Below, piece by piece: positions 2,484-62,454 of a stretch of 64,000 nucleotides of DNA. Position 1 is the stretch's first letter, and each line of letters starts with the position of its first letter. The stretch lies in sequence record QB031382.1. One strand, written 5' to 3'. The notes below the pieces were generated by a model that saw nothing but the letters and a program-made list of their open reading frames with translations, was not told the origin of the DNA and ran no database searches. A program made the position numbers and the translations under genes. Source of the stretch: a phage.

Positions 2484-3709
2484 TGAGCGTTATTCAACAA
2501 TTTGCCAACCCGATGAATCCGCGTGAAACTGTTTTACTGGCTCACGGCATGATTAAACGTGTCAGCATCAAACCTATCAAAGGTGCTGATCCTACAACAG
2601 GTATTAAAACCACTGTGTGGCAAGGTAAGAAAATCGAGTCCAGTCACACCATCTCTTTACTGATTTCTGAACTGGATTCTTCTGATAACCTACTTCAAGG
2701 TGGTGAAGAAGTTTGGATCAGTATGGGTGATAAATTGCTCAAACCTGGTCATCAAGATTCCGTCTCTGTTAAAATTGATGACAAGTGGGAAACAGTAACG
2801 CCAGGATGGATCGTAAATATCCCTTTAAAGGCAAATGAGCATAACGGTAAGACCTACTACAAAGGCTCATTGGCTAAAATGGTTAAGCTGGGGGCAGGAG
2901 AGGCTCCAGCAGCTCCACAGCAACAAAAACAGCAACAAGGCACACAATCACAAGGCCAGAAGCAGAAACCTCAGCAGAATGCCAATCAGGACGTTTTACG
3001 CATCTATGGTGATGTGACTCAGATTGTTGGTAACGTGGTTACTGTCAATGACCACAAGATTGGCGAAGGTGCTATGGTTGTCTCCGATGAGCAGCTTAAA
3101 GACCTGGTGGTTGGCGGTCGTGTTGCAGCTATTGTTGACAAAGACACCGGGAATATTATCAGCGGCTTCAAGGCCTACCCGCCTAAAGCAGAGAACGGTA
3201 CACAAGGTTCTGGTGGTAAGCGTAAATCCTCTTACGACCCCATTGGTGTAGAGACAGGGCACAGTATCAATGCGTTGCAGATCATTCTGGATCGCGGGTT
3301 TAAGATTGACAGCCCTTTAGATGTGGCTAAAACATTGCACGTGGTCACCATCGAGCTTAAGAAAGAGTACGCTCAAGCCACCAACCGGACTGAAGATGAA
3401 GTAGGTGCCAGTGTTGGTAACGCGGTATTGAATGCTTGTCGCCGTATTGACAAGAAAACGAAAGTTGATGATTTTGCAGCAGCAATTACTGCAGAGGCAA
3501 AAGATGTCTTGACTAATCTTGCTGAACCGTTGTACGATTGGATCAAGAATGGTGCGGGGACTACTGAGCATCAAGAACCTCAAGCTGCCAAACAGGAAGC
3601 CACTCCACAGCAAAACACTGTAGATGCCCCTCCTGTAGATGATGACGGAGATGACCCGATGGATCAGAATCCGGCACAATACGCCTTTGATGATGACATT
3701 CCTTTTTAA
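2483..3709 (+). CDS. SSB-like protein with Q-rich linker and C-terminal acidic DDDIPF tail
   Basis: Track ORF 2336..3709 trimmed to ATG 2483 after AAGGAG; protein ends DDDGDDPMDQNPAQYAFDDDIPF, matching the bacterial SSB C-terminal tip. Confidence 0.6.
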   Translation: MSVIQQFANPMNPRETVLLAHGMIKRVSIKPIKGADPTTGIKTTVWQGKKIESSHTISLLISELDSSDNLLQGGEEVWISMGDKLLKPGHQDSVSVKIDDKWETVTPGWIVNIPLKANEHNGKTYYKGSLAKMVKLGAGEAPAAPQQQKQQQGTQSQGQKQKPQQNANQDVLRIYGDVTQIVGNVVTVNDHKIGEGAMVVSDEQLKDLVVGGRVAAIVDKDTGNIISGFKAYPPKAENGTQGSGGKRKSSYDPIGVETGHSINALQIILDRGFKIDSPLDVAKTLHVVTIELKKEYAQATNRTEDEVGASVGNAVLNACRRIDKKTKVDDFAAAITAEAKDVLTNLAEPLYDWIKNGAGTTEHQEPQAAKQEATPQQNTVDAPPVDDDGDDPMDQNPAQYAFDDDIPF

Positions 3710-3724
3710 CATCTAGTTAACATA

Positions 3725-3754
3725 GCCCTGCCCGAAAGGGTGGGGCATTTTTGT
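3725..3754 (+). terminator. rho-independent terminator
   Basis: GCCCTGCCC-GAAA-GGGTGGGGC hairpin followed by ATTTTTGT. Confidence 0.75.
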
Positions 3755-3771
3755 ATAAGGAGATCTGAAAA

Positions 3772-4188
3772 ATGACATTAGAAGATATCATTGTTAAACC
3801 TGAGAACTATGACCAATACAATCTATCAACTCAATCTGTGGACCTTGGATGCGCCACTGCCAGTGCGTGGCTGGTTAACGGAAAAGAGCTGGATAAATGC
3901 TTAGAAGCTCACATGTCTATTAACAAGTTTCTGGATGAAAATACTCACTGGCTTGAGGGTGCAGGCGTATATGCTTCATGGTTGGAGAGTATGGGATTCG
4001 ACTACCAATCTGAAGAGGGGTGGTGGAGCTATTTAGCTATCTGTCCAGAGACGCTACAATGCTTCATGAAATATTCTGAAGATTTGGAGTACCGGGCGAT
4101 GGTTGATAGTGCTATTGCCCGTTATAGCCGTAAACCTTTTTCCCACGACATTAAAACTGTGGAAGAATTTGTTGAAGTTTTCTGTTGA
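3772..4188 (+). CDS. hypothetical protein
   Basis: Track ORF; RBS AAGGAG upstream. Confidence 0.55.
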   Translation: MTLEDIIVKPENYDQYNLSTQSVDLGCATASAWLVNGKELDKCLEAHMSINKFLDENTHWLEGAGVYASWLESMGFDYQSEEGWWSYLAICPETLQCFMKYSEDLEYRAMVDSAIARYSRKPFSHDIKTVEEFVEVFC

Positions 4189-4284
4189 CACAGATTGAAA
4201 GGTGTGCAATTATAACTTCATAGAACGGGAGGACGTGATGAACGAAGAAAACTGGGATGTATAACTAACAGGAGGCCACTGCCC

Positions 4285-4482
4285 ATGATTTATCGAATCC
4301 GTGTAAGAGAAGATGCACCAGGCTGTTACTTTGACTGGCGTGGGTGGTGGTTTCTCCACCCGATGGATGGACTCACAGATAGAATGCTGGATGCTGCCCT
4401 TTATACAGATACCGACATAGAATATAATCTCTATCTGAAGGACGGTATAGATAACGGTCTATTTGAAGCAATTCCTGTGTAA
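4285..4482 (+). CDS. hypothetical protein
   Basis: Track ORF; RBS AGGAGG upstream; TTGACA at 4185. Confidence 0.5.
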   Translation: MIYRIRVREDAPGCYFDWRGWWFLHPMDGLTDRMLDAALYTDTDIEYNLYLKDGIDNGLFEAIPV

Positions 4483-4550
4483 GAGGATGTGATAGCCATG
4501 TTTTATGATCTTCCTATAGCGCCACCACCTGTTGAACCCGGAGAACTAAG

Positions 4551-4976
4551 ATGACCTATGAAATGCCAAAACTGATTCGTGACGATGCCCAAAACGCTCA
4601 CACCATTATTATGGGCAAACGCATGGATATTATTTGTCATAAAGATTTCTGGGAAGGAAGTTACTTCACAGAGTATTTTGGTAAACTGGACAATGGTCTG
4701 CTGATCCAGTTCTACACCGATGCGGAAAACAACATTCACTGGGAGTTCGAAACTGAAGATATCCATAAACTTTTCACCTTCCTCGGTATTAAGGTTGAGG
4801 CCAAGTTTGAAGAAGGTGAGTGCGACGATTGTGGATTCTACGAGGTAACAGATTTCTATCTTCCGAGTGGTGAGAACCTTTACTATGAAAGCCACTTCGG
4901 TAACTCCAATATGCCACAGTGCTGGACTGAGTTTTTTGAAATTGTGGAAGAGGAGTTGGCATATCGTGATTATTGA
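4551..4976 (+). CDS. hypothetical protein, translationally coupled to macrodomain gene
   Basis: Track ORF; its TGA stop overlaps the GTG start of the next gene. Confidence 0.5.
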   Translation: MTYEMPKLIRDDAQNAHTIIMGKRMDIICHKDFWEGSYFTEYFGKLDNGLLIQFYTDAENNIHWEFETEDIHKLFTFLGIKVEAKFEEGECDDCGFYEVTDFYLPSGENLYYESHFGNSNMPQCWTEFFEIVEEELAYRDY

Positions 4977-5424
4977 TACTGTAGAGGGAGATTTAATCTC
5001 CCTTTTTAAGAGTGGTGCTGGTCACCTGATCCACGGTTGTAACTGCTTCCACACAATGGGCAAGGGTGTAGCAAAACAGATTGCCCGTGAGTTCCCTCAA
5101 GCATTGGCAGCTGACAAAACGACTACCTACGGTTGCCTAAGTAAGCTAGGTGCGTTCTCTCGGTGGGAGCACTTATCTCCGAAAGGTATTGTCTACGGAA
5201 TCAATCTATACACTCAGTTCTACCCAGGGCCTAATGCTGAATATTTCTCAATTCTGAAAGGCTTTGAACGAGTCAATGAGATATTCAAGGGATCTACTTT
5301 ACCATTCTACATCCCTAAGATTGGGTGCGGCATAGGCGGCTTGAAATGGGGACACGTAGAGGACGTTATTAACCTTGCCACTTTTGATATAGATATTATC
5401 GTGGTGGAGTACAAAGAGTGTTGA
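4966..5424 (+). CDS. macrodomain protein, TARG1/DarG-like ADP-ribose hydrolase candidate
   Basis: Track ORF 4867..5424 trimmed to GTG 4966 after GAGGAG; motifs EGDLISLF..HLIHGCNCFHTMGKGVAKQIAREFP and PKIGCGIGGLKWGHVEDVI resemble TARG1/OARD1-type macrodomains. Confidence 0.65.
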   Translation: MIIDTVEGDLISLFKSGAGHLIHGCNCFHTMGKGVAKQIAREFPQALAADKTTTYGCLSKLGAFSRWEHLSPKGIVYGINLYTQFYPGPNAEYFSILKGFERVNEIFKGSTLPFYIPKIGCGIGGLKWGHVEDVINLATFDIDIIVVEYKEC

Positions 5425-5449
5425 CAGCCGGATTTTAAGGTGGTATAGT
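5421..5449 (+). promoter_or_regulatory. sigma70-like promoter
   Basis: TTGACA 5421-5426, 17-bp spacer, TATAGT 5444-5449. Confidence 0.65.
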
Positions 5450-5477
5450 CACCACAACGATTAAGACAGGGGGCACT

Positions 5478-5678
5478 ATGGAGACTAAAATCTTAATTCT
5501 AGCTGTGATAGATACAACAGAAGGGGCTATATTTGAATCTGCAGGAGGGTATTTCTACCTGCCCTATGGAAAAAGAACTTCCGAGCCGAGTAAAGATTCA
5601 ATCCTCAAAGTGTTCCCGTGTTCTTTCTGGCTGGAGATTCTGGTAGAGGATTGCAAAGGATTGGAGAGACAATTATGA
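5478..5678 (+). CDS. hypothetical protein
   Basis: Track ORF downstream of promoter. Confidence 0.5.
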   Translation: METKILILAVIDTTEGAIFESAGGYFYLPYGKRTSEPSKDSILKVFPCSFWLEILVEDCKGLERQL

Positions 5679-5869
5679 GAAACAAGAAAGAGCTTTACTC
5701 TGGTGAGTGGATCAACGATCAACAGATCGGAGAGGTAACCTGCTTCCGATGTTTTACCAGGTACAATATTAAAACTGCACCAAAAAGTGTTCCAAAGACT
5801 GACGGTTATTACATAAAAGAACCTCATTGCCCAAAATGTAAATGCCGATTGTACTGGAGCAATCTGTAA
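5675..5869 (+). CDS. small zinc-ribbon protein
   Basis: Track ORF 5618..5869 trimmed to ATG 5675 after GGAGAG; CFRC and CPKCKC cysteine pairs. Confidence 0.5.
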   Translation: MRNKKELYSGEWINDQQIGEVTCFRCFTRYNIKTAPKSVPKTDGYYIKEPHCPKCKCRLYWSNL

Positions 5870-5873
5870 GAGG

Positions 5874-5901
5874 TTGACATCTGAAAACTGCAGTGTATAA
5901 T
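5874..5901 (+). promoter_or_regulatory. sigma70-like promoter
   Basis: TTGACA 5874-5879, 16-bp spacer, TATAAT 5896-5901. Confidence 0.65.
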
Positions 5902-5932
5902 ATACTCATAAACTAACAGAGAGCGATGTATT

Positions 5933-6124
5933 ATGGTAATTTTTAACCGGGATGGTATCATAGTTAGACAGCACCCGTTCCTTGAATACTATCAAATTGA
6001 GCAATGGTGCTACGGGGATTGCAGTCACTCCTATGGGCAAAGTTGGGGATATCGCACAGTTTTTGAATCAACAGACCTTGACAAAGTAAGACAGAAAGTT
6101 TTAGAACTTATTAACAACAAGTGA
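5933..6124 (+). CDS. hypothetical protein
   Basis: Track ORF downstream of promoter. Confidence 0.5.
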   Translation: MVIFNRDGIIVRQHPFLEYYQIEQWCYGDCSHSYGQSWGYRTVFESTDLDKVRQKVLELINNK

Positions 6125-6131
6125 GTATGAT

Positions 6132-6464
6132 ATGGTAACATTAGAAAGACGTAAAGCTATTGCCGCTACACTGGCAGACATCTTTTGGGATTGTAATTTA
6201 AAAGATACCCGATATTGCGGCGCATCTGTAGATGTATTATTCCCACGGCCCACCATTGTTGCAATGGGCAGTCTACTGGGCGTAGTTGCAGGTGCATGGG
6301 ATAAGGAAGGCGGTTTTTATATCTGGCAACCTGACTACGGTACCTGGAAAGAAGTAAGGGGTGCTGATGACTTTGGGCCTGCAGTTGCTAAGATGGATGG
6401 CTGGGAAATTTATGTTGGAAACGACATGAAGCTGAAAGGCGAGATTGTTTACTGGTTACCTTAA
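6132..6464 (+). CDS. hypothetical protein
   Basis: Track ORF. Confidence 0.45.
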   Translation: MVTLERRKAIAATLADIFWDCNLKDTRYCGASVDVLFPRPTIVAMGSLLGVVAGAWDKEGGFYIWQPDYGTWKEVRGADDFGPAVAKMDGWEIYVGNDMKLKGEIVYWLP

Positions 6465-16752: not shown

Positions 16753-17364
16753 CTCTTTTCCTACCATAAACGGCCCTACCTGGCAAGTGGAATAATTGAC
16801 GAGCCATTAATCCCGCACACTGTACAAATATACATATAAAATAACTATTGCATAATCTTTCATCTTGTGGTAGCAGGGTCATTTTTACACGTTTTTCCTT
16901 CCAAAAATGCACGTAATGCAGCTATTGCACAAAATTTAACCTGATGCACATTTTCAGCATACTGTCAACAATTAAAAACCCTTATAAATCATACACTTAC
17001 ACAAACCAAAAAGCGTGTCCTACGTGAAAAATCGGGTGTAACTATAGCCGACAGATCTCAGAATCCACGTACGATCACCATTCTATAGCCTGCTAAGTAT
17101 TTATTCCAACCACAGAATAACGGAATAGTCAATACCTGTACAAAATAATTATTCGTATAAACTGCATAACATAAATTTTCTCATGTGTAAACATTTTTCG
17201 TAAACAGTCCGAAATTGTCACGATAGGTTACTATAATCAGAGAAATCTTTAGTCGTCTAATGTTTACTGCACATAACTATACTGACTGGAATCATTAGAT
17301 GACTAAGAGAAAGATAAGAAATAGTTAACAATGTAATTGTTTTACCTGTAACAATAAGGCAACT

Positions 17365-17642
17365 ATGCAAACGAATGTCATGGCGCGACGGAGTCGCGAC
17401 ATAATATAAAAGCAGTAACCATCACCCCCGTGATAGTTTATCTGCAAACTATTGATCAGATCATAGTTGCCTTAGATTTAGTTAATCATGACATAATAAG
17501 CAAGGCAACTATAGATCTGATAATAGTTGCCCTGCTTTTATATTATGTCATATATTATTAACCTGTTAATTGTCAGCTTATTGGCTGTTAGCTTGTCAAT
17601 TGTTAACTTGTTAATTGTTATCATGCAAACGAATGTCATGGC
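17365..17642. repeat. composite repeat element: 20-bp direct repeats flanking an 18-bp inverted-repeat pair
   Basis: ATGCAAACGAATGTCATGGC at 17365-17384 and 17623-17642; GACATAATATAAAAGCAG 17398-17415 is the reverse complement of 17532-17549; interior has repeated GGCAACTAT/ATAGTTGCC and a TGATCAGATCA palindrome. Confidence 0.8.
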
Positions 17643-17653
17643 TTATCATCTTT

Positions 17654-17765
17654 GTGTAAACTGTCAGGGTGTAGACTATTCAAGGTGTAAATTATTCAGA
17701 TGCAAACTATCCAGGCGTAAACAGTCTATGCGGGAACAATCTGCACGTGAACAATGAAACATGAA
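17654..17765. repeat. degenerate tandem array, about 16-bp period, about 7 units
   Basis: GTGTAAACTGTCAGG / GTGTAGACTATTCAAG / GTGTAAATTATTCAGA / TGCAAACTATCCAGGC and further units. Confidence 0.55.
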
Positions 17766-19254
17766 ATAATAACAGTCGTTATTGTATCGAAAGTGTATAA
17801 GGTGTCAGATTATGGCATATTGTGTGACATTGTGTCAGACAAGTTTTTCTCCTCTTTGTCAAGTGCTGCATGTAAAATTTACAAACTGGTATGGTAGCAT
17901 TTTTGCGGCCCTGTTTACATTCAGGAGTGTATGTATAACCCTTGTTGTGTGGGCGTTTAGACGTCTGGACGGTCAGAAGTCTGCAGGTTAATATCTAATC
18001 TATTGGTCGCTAACTATATCCCCACAAATAATAAGAAATGCAATTGTTATATGCGTAAACAGTAACTCATGTTATCAATCCCTGTATGTATCGCCAGTGG
18101 TGCGCATAATGGGTATTATGTTAAATTGCCCGTAATGATAACGATTCTCACAATGATAGGTATTCTCATTCACCCGCCCAGGATAGGTTGCAAATGTTGT
18201 GCCACTGTGTGAACGGCCTCGCCTATTAATTTGCCTCACTGCCCCGATATTTGAGAATTATTATAAGAATGAGAAGTATTCCCATTTCGTCCGCCTGGCA
18301 GCACTCCTGTAGGACAAGCACAAAATCGTGGCATAACTGTACCTGTTCAGATATTTCTGGCTGACTCTTCAGGTCTGTGTGGGAAAAGCCAACCTCTCCG
18401 GCGGCGGGGAGTGGGTCAATTAAAAAATTTACGTGGTGTATGAAGCGCTCTTCAGGTAAGGCAGGTATTATGGGATGAATCACTCTTCAGGTGATGATAT
18501 TTGTAGGTGTGATATTTGCTGGAAAGCCAGATATGACGGGACTCCCGGCGGGGCAGGGGTAGTACAGACAGGGAAAATGTGGAGAATGTGGTGGGTAAAT
18601 TGATCAAGCAGGTAGAGTATGGAATATGTTACAGGTATGTTAAATATGGAGGTAAGATATTTGTAAGATTTGTGTGTAAAATCAAAGACTTAAGTAGTGT
18701 TGTGGTATTTTCTATAAATAATTCAAGTTTAATAGGGAATATTTGCCTCTATCCACTTTGTATGGTAACTATATTCTAATTGAATTGGTTTACAAGTGTA
18801 TATAAAGTATACAAATTAAAGATACAAGAAACCCCCCTCCCCCTTCGGCTACCATTCACCTTTTCCTCTGACTGGTACTTAAACACTTATTCAGACTCTT
18901 CAGGTTATCACTCATATATCATATGGCAGTGACTGGTGTCCTCCGGCCCCTCTTTCGTCACCCGTCCGCTTCGCCATGCTAATGCCATAGCTAACTGTTC
19001 GGTTGTTCACCCTGTTCACTCAGGTGTATCTCCATACCCCTTCAAACCGAAGAGAACAGAAAACCCGAATTACTCGGTAAAAGAAAAGAGAAGAACTTAA
19101 TTTTATCAGGATAGGCAAGAATGTCAAGGCATGACTGCTCACTAAACAAGCAAACAGTCATGTGTGGGAGGTAAGTGATTGTGGTGGTAGGAAATTTAGT
19201 TGAAAGATGTGTTATAGGTGCTTCCAGCACTTTAGCCTGGCAGCTAATTGTGTG

Positions 19255-61641: not shown

Positions 61642-61716
61642 GCCCTGTTAGCTTAGTGGATAAAGCAGCGGCCTTCTAAGCCGTTGACACTGGTTCGAGT
61701 CCAGTACGGGGTGCCA
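61642..61716 (+). tRNA. tRNA-Arg(UCU): tRNA-Arg (anticodon UCU)
   Basis: Hand-folded cloverleaf: acceptor GCCCTGT/ACGGGGT, loop CTTCTAA, T-loop TTCGAGT, encoded CCA. Confidence 0.8.
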
Positions 61717-61720
61717 AATT

Positions 61721-61807
61721 GGGGAGTTATCCCGTAGAGGTAGCGGTGTAGACTGTAAATCTATTGTCATTGCGACTCGGGTGGTTCGACTCCACCACTC
61801 CCCACCA
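61721..61807 (+). tRNA. tRNA-Tyr(GUA): tRNA-Tyr (anticodon GUA), long variable arm
   Basis: Acceptor GGGGAGT/ACTCCCC, loop CTGTAAA, T-loop TTCGACT, encoded CCA. Confidence 0.75.
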
Positions 61808-61921
61808 AATTTATATTTTTAAATGCATAAATCATACAGATAATGACATTGATATTTATCGTCGTTTATACTAGTCACTAACTGCTCGAAAATCAGTGTC
61901 ATTATCAGTGTAATTTATAAA

Positions 61922-62012
61922 GGAGGGTAGGGAGCAATGGTGCTCAAGCGGTCTTGAAAACCGTCCCGTTGAGGATGACTCGATGATGGTTCGATTCCAT
62001 TACTCTCCGCCA
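61922..62012 (+). tRNA. tRNA-Ser(UGA): tRNA-Ser (anticodon UGA), long variable arm
   Basis: Acceptor GGAGGGT/ACTCTCC with one GU, loop CTTGAAA, T-loop TTCGATT, encoded CCA. Confidence 0.75.
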
Positions 62013-62110
62013 CATTGTTGACCTTGTAATTAAGCGAAAGCCGGAAGCAGAACCGGATTATCAAATGTTACAGTCGTCATCGCCGACTAGCCACATGGTC
62101 AACATATTGC

Positions 62111-62207
62111 GCTAGGTAAGCCCTTTGGCAAGGGCGAGGATTTTTAATCCTGAAAATAGACGCGGTAGTCGTTGAATACATAGGTGGTTCGATTCCATCA
62201 CCTAGCA
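62111..62207 (+). tRNA. atypical tRNA-like gene, identity unresolved
   Basis: Perfect acceptor GCTAGGT/ACCTAGC, D-arm and T-arm (TTCGATT), but the anticodon region is a 6-bp hairpin AGGATT/AATCCT with UUU loop and about 30 extra nt; 97 nt. Confidence 0.4.
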
Positions 62208-62214
62208 CCTTTTT

Positions 62215-62290
62215 GCTGATGTAGCACAATCGGTAGTGCAATTGATTTGTAATCAATAGGTTGCAGGTTCAAGTCCTGCCATCAGCACCA
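62215..62290 (+). tRNA. tRNA-Thr(UGU): tRNA-Thr (anticodon UGU)
   Basis: Acceptor GCTGATG/CATCAGC, stem ATTGA/TCAAT, loop TTTGTAA, T-loop TTCAAGT, encoded CCA. Confidence 0.8.
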
Positions 62291-62291
62291 T

Positions 62292-62366
62292 GGCCCTGTA
62301 GCTGGAAGGTTCAAGCAAGCGACTCATAATCGCCAGACGGTGGTTCAATTCCACCCAGGGCCACCA
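62292..62366 (+). tRNA. tRNA-Met(CAU): tRNA-Met or tRNA-Ile2 (anticodon CAU)
   Basis: Acceptor GGCCCTG/CAGGGCC, loop CTCATAA, T-loop TTCAATT, encoded CCA. Confidence 0.75.
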
Positions 62367-62377
62367 AATTATAAATA

Positions 62378-62454
62378 CTCCGCGTAGCTCAGCTTGGTAG
62401 AGCGCCTGATTTGGGATCAGGAGGTCGAGTGTTCGAATCACTCCGTGGAGACCA
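62378..62454 (+). tRNA. tRNA-Pro(UGG): tRNA-Pro (anticodon UGG)
   Basis: Acceptor CTCCGCG/CGTGGAG, D-arm GCTCAGCTTGGTAGAGC, loop TTTGGGA, T-loop TTCGAAT, encoded CCA. Confidence 0.75.

What the first reader, a model, noticed from the sequence alone, without database searches (positions are those of the whole stretch)
4551..5424. Early-region TARG1/DarG-like macrodomain in a two-gene operon
ORF 4966..5424 has the two TARG1/OARD1-type macrodomain blocks (GDL...HGCNC..MGKGVAKQIA..FP and PKIGCGIGGLKWG). Macrodomains of this class remove ADP-ribose from proteins and, in DarG, from DNA. Placement among promoter-driven early genes fits an anti-defence role against ADP-ribosylating immunity such as DarT. 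Its GTG start overlaps the stop of a 141-aa ORF of unknown function (4551..4976), which could be a specificity partner.
Basis: partly seen in the sequence, partly recalled or inferred. Interest (0 to 1): 0.7.

Follow-up and report, generated by a model that had tools for sequence, protein, structure and literature searches.

The report
Phage anti-DarT macrodomain (AdfM/Tk.4 ortholog)
This rV5-like E. coli phage gene is an ordinary, widely conserved phage macrodomain, related to the phage T4 protein Tk.4/AdfM that lets T4 grow on bacteria armed with the DNA-ADP-ribosylating DarTG2 defence; the gene in front of it shows no sign of being a dedicated partner.

Summary
ORF 4966-5424 (GTG start, 152 aa) is a real macrodomain with every quoted motif, and its start overlaps the stop of ORF 4551-4976 by 11 nt. 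The window is a Vequintavirus (rV5-like) genome, where more than 100 GenBank records already annotate this gene as "macro domain protein" or "phosphatase". The protein is 39% identical over its full length (E 8e-41) to T4 Tk.4. A 2025 preprint named Tk.4 AdfM and showed that T4 needs it to grow on DarTG2-expressing hosts. The anti-DarT reading is therefore supported by homology and is already known in kind. Two corrections apply. First, the catalytic Lys of TARG1 and DarG is an invariant Gln (Q84, paired with N26) in this family. The same arrangement occurs in Streptomyces SCO6735, which removes thymidine-linked ADP-ribose from DNA. The PhiKZ protein also called AdfM is Lys-type and a separate lineage. 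Second, the 141-aa upstream ORF is not a conserved partner. It occurs only in Vequintavirus and some T4-like phages, where it sits beside Dam, QueC-like or Mom-like genes and never beside a macrodomain. Verdict: new member of a known kind, low to moderate interest.

The parts
3725..3746 (+). Intrinsic-terminator-like hairpin upstream of the gene block (9-bp stem with 7 GC pairs, followed by a T-run)
   Evidence: An equivalent terminator is annotated in phage HdK5.
4185..4213 (+). Sigma70-like promoter (TTGACA-17-AATTAT with TG). It is the likely start of the transcription unit that carries the macrodomain gene.
   Evidence: The hexamers are conserved in 5 related genomes while the spacer varies.
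4285..4482 (+). 65-aa acidic ORF of unknown function (PHROG 9903), probably the first gene of the unit
   Evidence: dN/dS 0.06
4498..4554 (+). Possible unannotated 18-codon leader ORF (MFYDLPIAPPPVEPGELR*). Its stop overlaps the ATG of ORF141 (ATGA), and a GAGGA lies 10 nt upstream.
   Evidence: Substitutions among 5 genomes are mostly synonymous in this frame. Coding status is not proven.
4551..4976 (+). ORF141: acidic protein (pI 4.3) of unknown function, PHROG 8157. The family signature is C91-x2-C94-G...H115-F-G...P122-x2-W125-x2-F128.
4966..5424 (+). Macrodomain protein (152 aa, GTG start), an ortholog of T4 Tk.4/AdfM. The ADP-ribose-binding loops are HGCNC...MGKG and PKIGCGIGG, and the active-site pair is N26/Q84.
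5421..5449 (+). Next sigma70-like promoter (TTGACA-17-TATAGT with TG). It overlaps the macrodomain stop codon and marks the start of the following unit.
   Evidence: The hexamers are conserved while the spacer is strongly diverged among relatives.

Best explanation
The 152-aa protein is the Vequintavirus ortholog of the phage Tk.4/AdfM macrodomain family. Inferred mechanism: it is made early from sigma70-type promoters, binds the ADP-ribose that the host toxin DarT2 attaches to thymidines in single-stranded phage DNA, and hydrolyses the ribose-base bond. This restores replicable DNA and so neutralises DarTG2-type defence. Unlike DarG and TARG1, it does not use a catalytic lysine. An invariant Gln (Q84), positioned by an invariant Asn (N26), occupies that site, as in Streptomyces SCO6735. 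In SCO6735, Gln85 orients the distal ribose and a backbone-held water is proposed to start catalysis. Shown here: fold, family membership, active-site residues, synteny and purifying selection. Inferred: substrate (T-ADPr DNA), anti-DarTG2 phenotype and early timing. The upstream 141-aa ORF is co-transcribed and its stop overlaps the macrodomain start, but it is most likely an independent accessory gene.
For: Fold: the AlphaFold2 model has pLDDT 97. Foldseek against the PDB ranks TARG1 first (TM 0.78-0.85), followed by Poa1p, Taq and Mtb DarG, BT1257 and SCO6735. Class: the family profile matches Mtb DarG at 1.6e-18, TARG1 at 2e-17, SCO6735 and Taq DarG at 1.2e-16, and nsp3/MacroD-type domains at 4e-3 or worse. 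It also matches NCBIfam antitoxin_DarG at 1.6e-11 and PADLOC DarG at 6.6e-13 over the macro part only. Orthology: 39% identity and E 8e-41 over the full length to T4 Tk.4, with a shared NLYTQFxPGPN motif. It is 66% identical to the Krischvirus Sf20 protein, which sits in the T4 vs->tk.4 position. Function of the ortholog: tk.4 was the single significant hit of a T4 transposon screen on DarTG2, and a clean knockout became DarTG2-sensitive (bioRxiv 10.1101/2025.11.20.689424). Active site: N26 and Q84 are invariant in 57 diverse family members, and Q84 aligns with DarG and TARG1 catalytic Lys and with SCO6735 Gln85. SCO6735 cleaves thymidine-linked ADPr from DNA, and its Q85A and N27S mutants lose activity (PMC9411070). 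Accessory character: natural deletion or frameshift variants exist, and the gene is a local divergence patch in otherwise 95-100% identical genomes, while dN/dS of 0.09-0.17 shows it is kept functional.
Against: No experiment exists for the Vequintavirus protein itself, and none of the papers read or found by the searches run here reports one. The T4 evidence is genetic and comes from a preprint, and no biochemistry on a Gln-type phage macrodomain was found. At 39% identity, substrate preference could differ. The family is annotated 'Poa1p_like/phosphatase' and shares the IH(S/G)CNC motif with yeast Poa1p, so a small-molecule substrate is not excluded. Iyer et al. (PMC9503650) argued that most phage macrodomains act on soluble ADPr derivatives. 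The 'early' timing rests only on promoter-like consensus matches.
Confidence: 0.7

Rival explanations
1. The macrodomain processes soluble ADP-ribose derivatives rather than DNA adducts. Candidates are ADP-ribose-1''-phosphate, O-acetyl-ADP-ribose, or ADPr-based immune signals or toxins. This is what its 'phosphatase/Poa1p_like' annotation implies.
For: PHROG 335 is labelled 'phosphatase'. The protein matches yeast Poa1p in sequence and fold, including the IH(S/G)CNC motif. [quoted passage not shown]
Against: The T4 ortholog has a specific DarTG2 phenotype. The closest profile matches are DNA- or protein-deconjugating enzymes. The annotated related genomes I read showed no KptA/Tpt1 or 2H enzyme nearby that would generate Appr1p. 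The 'phosphatase' label is inherited annotation, not an assay.
Confidence: 0.12
2. The macrodomain reverses ADP-ribosylation of proteins or RNA. Targets could be host ART toxins such as the mRNA-modifying CmdT or protein ARTs, or the phage's own ADP-ribosylation could be tuned this way.
For: TARG1 and SCO6735, the structural relatives, also de-modify proteins (PMC9411070). Macrodomains are generally versatile in substrate.
Against: CmdTAC still defends strongly against wild-type T4, which carries Tk.4 (PMC11618068), so this family does not obviously counter RNA ADP-ribosylation. No ART gene is annotated in the related genome segments read. The T4 screen tied tk.4 specifically to DarTG2.
Confidence: 0.1
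3. ORF141 and the macrodomain form a two-component anti-DarT module. In this view the acidic ORF141 supplies specificity or binds DarT, acting as a split version of DarG's C-terminal domain.
For: The two genes overlap by 11 nt, which allows translational coupling, in all Vequintavirus genomes examined. ORF141 is very acidic, with pI 4.3 and 30 D/E against 10 K/R. It is under purifying selection. In other phages the family sits next to enzymes acting on DNA bases.
Confidence: 0.05

Closest known systems
Phage T4 Tk.4 = AdfM (anti-DarT factor Macrodomain; bioRxiv 10.1101/2025.11.20.689424)
   Same: Both are stand-alone phage macrodomains of about 152-155 aa. They share 39% identity over the full length (E 8e-41) and the same HGCNCFHTMG, NLYTQFxPGPN and IG-G-IG motifs, including the N/Q active-site pair. 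Both are non-essential accessory genes.
   Different: The gene neighbourhood differs: vs->tk.4->tk.3...tk in T4, against ORF65->ORF141->macro here. The Vequintavirus protein itself has not been tested against DarTG2.
PhiKZ gp104 AdfM (chimallivirus; Cell Rep 2026, PMC13309987)
   Same: It is a phage-encoded single macrodomain. It is shown biochemically to remove DarT2-made ADP-ribose from thymidine in ssDNA and to protect against DarTG2.
   Different: Identity is only about 21-25%. It is Lys-type, with an FPTKDNW motif and K78 like DarG, where this family has Gln. It is imported into the phage nucleus. It is therefore a separate lineage that happens to carry the same name.
DarG (DarG2) antitoxin macrodomain, Mtb 5M3I / Thermus 5M31
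   Same: It is the best sequence match among solved structures. It has the same fold, the conserved Asn and the Gly-rich phosphate-binding loop.
   Different: This protein has no C-terminal DarT-binding domain (152 aa against about 340). No DarT is found next to it. The catalytic Lys80 is replaced by Gln. The NCBIfam score is 44 bits against a cutoff of 250.
Streptomyces coelicolor SCO6735 (5E3B; PMC9411070)
   Same: It belongs to the ALC1-like class and has Gln at the catalytic-Lys position, held by the conserved Asn. It has proven thymidine-ADPr DNA hydrolase activity without a DarT partner.
   Different: It is a bacterial chromosomal protein with about 24% identity. Its longer mobile loop carries Lys89 and Lys94, which are implicated in DNA binding and are absent here (YPGPNAEY loop).
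Human TARG1/OARD1 (4J5R/4J5S)
   Same: It is the top structural match (TM 0.78-0.85), with a similar size and a similar GCG loop.
   Different: Its Lys84/Asp125 catalytic dyad corresponds to Gln84/Gly124 here. Its physiological substrates are protein Glu/Asp-ADPr and OAADPr.
Yeast Poa1p (6LFQ-6LFU), ADP-ribose-1''-phosphate phosphatase
   Same: It shares the IH(S/G)CNC N-terminal motif and the fold. It is the source of the 'Poa1p_like/phosphatase' database label.
   Different: It is longer (about 180 aa) and, at the single-sequence level, matches only over segments. Its phosphatase role is tied to tRNA-splicing by-products, which have no evident source in this phage.

Membership tests
Macrodomain (Pfam PF01661) | Sequence score above the Pfam gathering threshold | tested here: met
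   26.9 bits against a cutoff of 22, E 5.1e-6
Macrodomain (Pfam PF01661) | Alpha/beta/alpha macro fold | tested here: met
   AlphaFold2 pLDDT 97. There are 171 PDB matches at E<=1e-3; the top matches are macrodomains and macrodomain-derived designs.
ALC1-like / TARG1-like macrodomain class | Closer to TARG1, DarG, SCO6735 and BT1257 than to the MacroD, nsp3 or PARG classes | tested here: met
   The profile against the PDB gives 1e-16 to 1e-18 for this class and 4e-3 or worse for the others.
TARG1/OARD1 | Catalytic Lys84-Asp125 dyad | tested here: not met
   Q84 and G124 occupy these columns. Q84 is invariant in 57 homologues.
DarG antitoxin (NCBIfam NF048014) | Full-length score above the curated cutoff, that is, macrodomain plus C-terminal DarT-binding domain | tested here: not met
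   44.1 bits against a cutoff of 250. Only profile positions 3-143 of 338 are matched.
DarG antitoxin | Catalytic Lys (Taq K80) | tested here: not met
   It is replaced by invariant Gln84.
DarG antitoxin | Adjacent darT toxin gene | tested here: not met
   The five neighbouring ORFs scanned (3772-5869) have no ART hit in Pfam or PHROGs. The setting is a lytic phage genome.
AdfM, T4 Tk.4 type | Full-length homology to T4 Tk.4 as a single-domain phage protein | tested here: met
   39% identity, E 8e-41, residues 1-150 against 1-152. Both fall in the PHROG 335 family, labelled 'phosphatase'.
AdfM, T4 Tk.4 type | Required for, or sufficient for, growth on DarTG2-expressing hosts | not testable with these tools
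   This is shown only for T4. No data on a Vequintavirus were found.
AdfM, PhiKZ gp104 type | DarG-like active site (N23 + K78) and close sequence relationship | tested here: not met
   hhalign gives 21% identity. PhiKZ has FPTKDNW where this family has NLYTQF.
SCO6735-type thymidine-ADPr hydrolase | Gln at the catalytic-Lys position, stabilised by the conserved Asn | tested here: met
   Q84 aligns with SCO6735 Gln85 and N26 with Asn27. Both are invariant.
SCO6735-type thymidine-ADPr hydrolase | Hydrolysis of dT-ADPr on ssDNA | not testable with these tools
   This needs a biochemical assay.

The most novel reading that the evidence does not exclude
The ORF141 family has the signature CxxCG...HFG...PxxWxxF, is acidic and has no known fold. 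It may be an unrecognised accessory factor that works with phage enzymes acting on DNA bases. In T4-like phages it sits immediately upstream of Dam, QueC-like or Mom-like genes, often overlapping them. In Vequintavirus it sits upstream of the AdfM-type macrodomain, where it could supply DNA targeting or a DarT-decoy function analogous to DarG's C-terminal domain. A separate point: the Gln-type (T4/rV5) and Lys-type (PhiKZ) 'AdfM' proteins would be two independent inventions of anti-DarT2 macrodomains with different chemistry.
Probability: 0.1. Interest if true: 0.55.

Novelty: new member of a known kind. Interest (0 to 1): 0.27.

Why it matters
If the inference holds, rV5-like phages carry a ready-made counter to DarTG2. 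These phages are common candidates for E. coli phage therapy and biocontrol, so the gene is relevant for predicting host range on DarTG-positive E. coli. The useful refinement is mechanistic. The widespread T4/rV5 macrodomain family (about 5.6% of phage records) lacks the DarG/TARG1 catalytic lysine and instead shares the Asn-Gln site of SCO6735. The two proteins currently named AdfM are therefore different lineages with probably different chemistry. None of this opens a long-standing question, and the gene class and its role were already described in 2025-2026.

Tried and rejected
1. Membership in DarG proper is rejected. The NCBIfam score is far below the cutoff, there is no C-terminal domain, no Lys and no DarT nearby.
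2. A TARG1-type Lys/Asp mechanism is rejected.
3. ORF141 as a conserved macrodomain partner is rejected on phyletic and synteny grounds.
5. The long multi-stretch hits in the 1.8-billion-protein search (P0098 and others) are repeat or low-complexity artefacts.
6. The afdb50 fold library was unavailable.
7. There is no DNA match in complete E. coli genomes, so this is not a prophage or host gene.
8. A search for a published Vequintavirus-specific DarTG2 test found none.
9. I could not retrieve the Poa1p residue that aligns with Q84, so the comparison with the 'phosphatase' relative is incomplete.

Full report
**Observation.** The window is a Vequintavirus (rV5-like E. coli myovirus). Positions 3700-6200 match 120 phage records, 116 of them over at least 80% of the query, and the best is phage HMD-6 at 96.6%. 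ORF 4551-4976 (141 aa) ends at 4976, so the two genes overlap by 11 nt, and a GAGGAG lies 10 nt upstream of the GTG. GenBank annotators call the same two CDSs, labelling the second 'macro domain protein', 'phosphatase' or 'Poa1p_like'. Homologues start at the same column (MII...), which supports the GTG start. Both genes evolve under purifying selection, with dN/dS 0.09-0.17 against three relatives.

**What the 152-aa protein is.**
- It passes the Pfam Macro threshold (26.9 bits against 22) and matches PHROG 335 at 1e-58.
- An AlphaFold2 model built on 57 homologues has pLDDT 97.
- Foldseek against the PDB ranks TARG1 first (TM 0.78-0.85), then Poa1p, Thermus and M. tuberculosis DarG, BT1257 and SCO6735.
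- A family profile scores Mtb DarG at 1.6e-18, TARG1 at 2e-17, and SCO6735 and Taq DarG at 1.2e-16. Coronavirus, alphavirus and MacroD-type domains score 4e-3 or worse.
- The DarG models of NCBIfam and PADLOC match only over their macro part. The NCBIfam score is 44 bits against a cutoff of 250, covering profile positions 3-143 of 338.

The protein is not a DarG: it has no C-terminal domain and no neighbouring DarT.

**Relatives and known function.** tblastn finds the family in 2817 of 50,697 phage records. These are mostly large myoviruses of enterobacteria, Pseudomonas, Vibrio, Acinetobacter and Aeromonas. In T-even phages the hit is gene tk.4. The window protein is 39% identical to T4 Tk.4 over the full length (E 8e-41). 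It is 66% identical to the Krischvirus Sf20 protein, which lies in the T4-syntenic vs->tk.4 position. A 2025 preprint (10.1101/2025.11.20.689424, read) reports three things. Tk.4 was the only significant hit when a T4 transposon library was grown on DarTG2. A clean knockout became DarTG2-sensitive. The authors named the gene adfM (anti-DarT factor Macrodomain). A different protein, PhiKZ gp104, was also named AdfM and was shown in vitro to remove DarT2-made ADP-ribose from thymidine in ssDNA (PMC13309987). None of the papers read or found by the searches run here reports a test of the Vequintavirus protein.

**Active site.** Among 57 diverse family members the invariant residues are G24, N26, G34, A36, N80, Q84, P117, G120 and G122. 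Q84 (motif NLYTQF) aligns with the first Lys of TKK in Mtb DarG and TARG1, which is the catalytic Lys80/Lys84. TARG1 Asp125 aligns with Gly124. In the HMMER alignment to SCO6735, Q84 aligns with that protein's Gln. According to PMC9411070, this residue is Gln85, the equivalent of the DarG/TARG1 lysine. That paper also reports that:
- Q85A abolishes activity, and N27S almost abolishes it;
- SCO6735 hydrolyses thymidine-linked ADP-ribose on DNA;
- the proposed mechanism uses a backbone-positioned water.

T4 Tk.4 shares the NLYTQF motif, whereas PhiKZ gp104 has FPTKDNW. The T4/rV5 family is thus a Gln-type (SCO6735-like) macrodomain, and the PhiKZ 'AdfM' is a Lys-type (DarG-like) one at only about 21-25% identity. 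They are two lineages under one name. The chemistry itself is inferred from alignment, not shown.

**Transcription unit.**
- Sigma70-like sites are enriched in 3600-6200: 12 found against 5.5 +/- 2.6 expected.
- TTGACA-17-AATTAT (with TG) at 4185-4213 and TTGACA-17-TATAGT (with TG) at 5421-5449 keep their hexamers across five related genomes while their spacers diverge, as expected for real promoters.
- A terminator-like hairpin lies at 3725-3746.
- No strong promoter or terminator lies between 4213 and 5421. The unit is therefore more likely ORF65 (4285-4482), ORF141 and the macrodomain gene than a two-gene operon.
- In the 68-nt gap there is an 18-codon ORF (4498-4554, MFYDLPIAPPPVEPGELR*). 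It has a GAGGA upstream, its stop overlaps the ORF141 ATG, and substitutions among relatives are mostly synonymous in that frame. This is a possible polyproline leader peptide and is unproven.
- The gene sits in a block of about 40 small unannotated genes downstream of the replication module. This fits, but does not prove, early expression.

Its genomic contexts outside Vequintavirus are:
- in RB49, directly upstream of dam, then nrdC and endoVII;
- in L012, upstream of a D12 methyltransferase with an 8-nt overlap;
- in L010/L011, upstream of a QueC-like PP-loop protein and then a D12 methyltransferase;
- in L016/L017, between a Mom-like gene and QueC-like, D12 methyltransferase and glutaredoxin genes;
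- in L013-15, among unknown small ORFs.

None of these contexts contains a macrodomain. Krischvirus has both genes in separate loci. The 'specificity partner' idea is therefore not supported. What remains is a weak guilt-by-association link between this family and enzymes that act on DNA bases. The dam-linked contexts probably reflect one ancestral locus, so that link rests on about two independent contexts.

**Accessory behaviour.** Against rV5_ev147 the window is 95-100% identical on both sides, but identity falls to 73-83% from about 4870 to 5470, exactly across the macrodomain gene. tblastn identities among Vequintavirus-like records fall into bands of 90-95% (69 records) and 80-90% (42 records). 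Some contigs carry inactivated copies. P0017 is a chimera of ORF141 residues 1-55 and macrodomain residues from about 86 to 152, joined at a shared QFY. It sits on a 135.5-kb contig where one 121-aa gene replaces both. P0020, P0033 and P0048 are internal-deletion or frameshift forms. Assembly error cannot be excluded. This pattern fits a conditionally useful anti-defence gene.

**Rivals.**
- Soluble ADPr derivatives. A role on Appr1p, OAADPr or immune signals is suggested by the Poa1p-like label and motif and by Iyer et al.. It has no experimental support and does not explain the T4 phenotype.
- RNA or protein de-ADP-ribosylation. This is possible for the class, but CmdTAC still blocks wild-type T4, which carries Tk.4 (PMC11618068).
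- A two-component ORF141-macrodomain module. This is disfavoured by the distribution data above.

**Verdict.** The gene is a new, untested member of a known kind, the Tk.4/AdfM phage anti-DarTG2 macrodomains. Two refinements apply: the active site is Gln-type (SCO6735-like) rather than TARG1/DarG-type, and the upstream ORF is not a dedicated partner. Interest is low to moderate.

Noticed in passing
window 4498-4554 (+): An unannotated 18-codon ORF (MFYDLPIAPPPVEPGELR*) carries a Pro-Pro-Pro motif. A GAGGA lies 10 nt upstream, and its stop overlaps the ATG of ORF141 (ATGA). Differences among five Vequintavirus genomes are mostly synonymous in this frame. It may be a translationally coupled leader peptide.
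   Followed up: partly
window ~4870-5470, compared with L007 (rV5_ev147): The macrodomain gene is a sharp divergence patch (73-83% nucleotide identity) inside 95-100% identical flanks. This suggests allele replacement by recombination at this gene among Vequintaviruses.
   Followed up: partly
L009 1501-1866 (Logan ERR11560567, 135.5-kb contig); P0020, P0033, P0048: Natural knock-out variants exist. One is a ~519-nt deletion at a shared QFY microhomology that fuses the N-terminus of ORF141 to the C-terminus of the macrodomain. The others are internal-deletion or frameshift forms of the macrodomain gene. They could be real dispensability or assembly errors.
   Followed up: partly
L002 4001-4432; L012 2592-3008; L010 514-951; L016 3502-3924: In T4-like phages the ORF141 family lies immediately upstream of dam (D12 methyltransferase) or of a QueC-like PP-loop gene, often overlapping it, and in one case next to a Mom-like gene. 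The family signature is CxxCG...HFG...PxxWxxF, and no known fold matches it.
   Followed up: partly
window 5675-5869 (+): A 64-aa protein two genes downstream matches Pfam Phage_zn_bind_2 (PF23903, 9.3e-23). Some related records annotate the neighbourhood as 'endonuclease VII' or 'homing endonuclease'.
   Followed up: no
window 61642-62454 (+): A cluster of seven tRNA genes (Arg-TCT, Tyr, Ser, Thr, Met, Pro) includes an odd 99-nt call at 62111-62209 with an undetermined anticodon. ARAGORN reports 'atcc', and Rfam tRNA scores 35.5 bits.
   Followed up: no
window ~17200-19000: An ORF-poor stretch of roughly 2 kb separates the rightward block of small genes from the leftward block. It corresponds to the HMD-6 gap at 15.3-17.1 kb. 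The HIDEN-SEQ preprint reports that the equivalent ~2-kb intergenic region of Bas54 tolerated no transposon insertions.
   Followed up: partly
(phage database records): Sixteen records named 'Campylobacter phage' (for example C2 and A141, about 140 kb) are more than 90% identical to this E. coli Vequintavirus region. They are probably mislabelled, or the phages were propagated from mixed samples.
   Followed up: no
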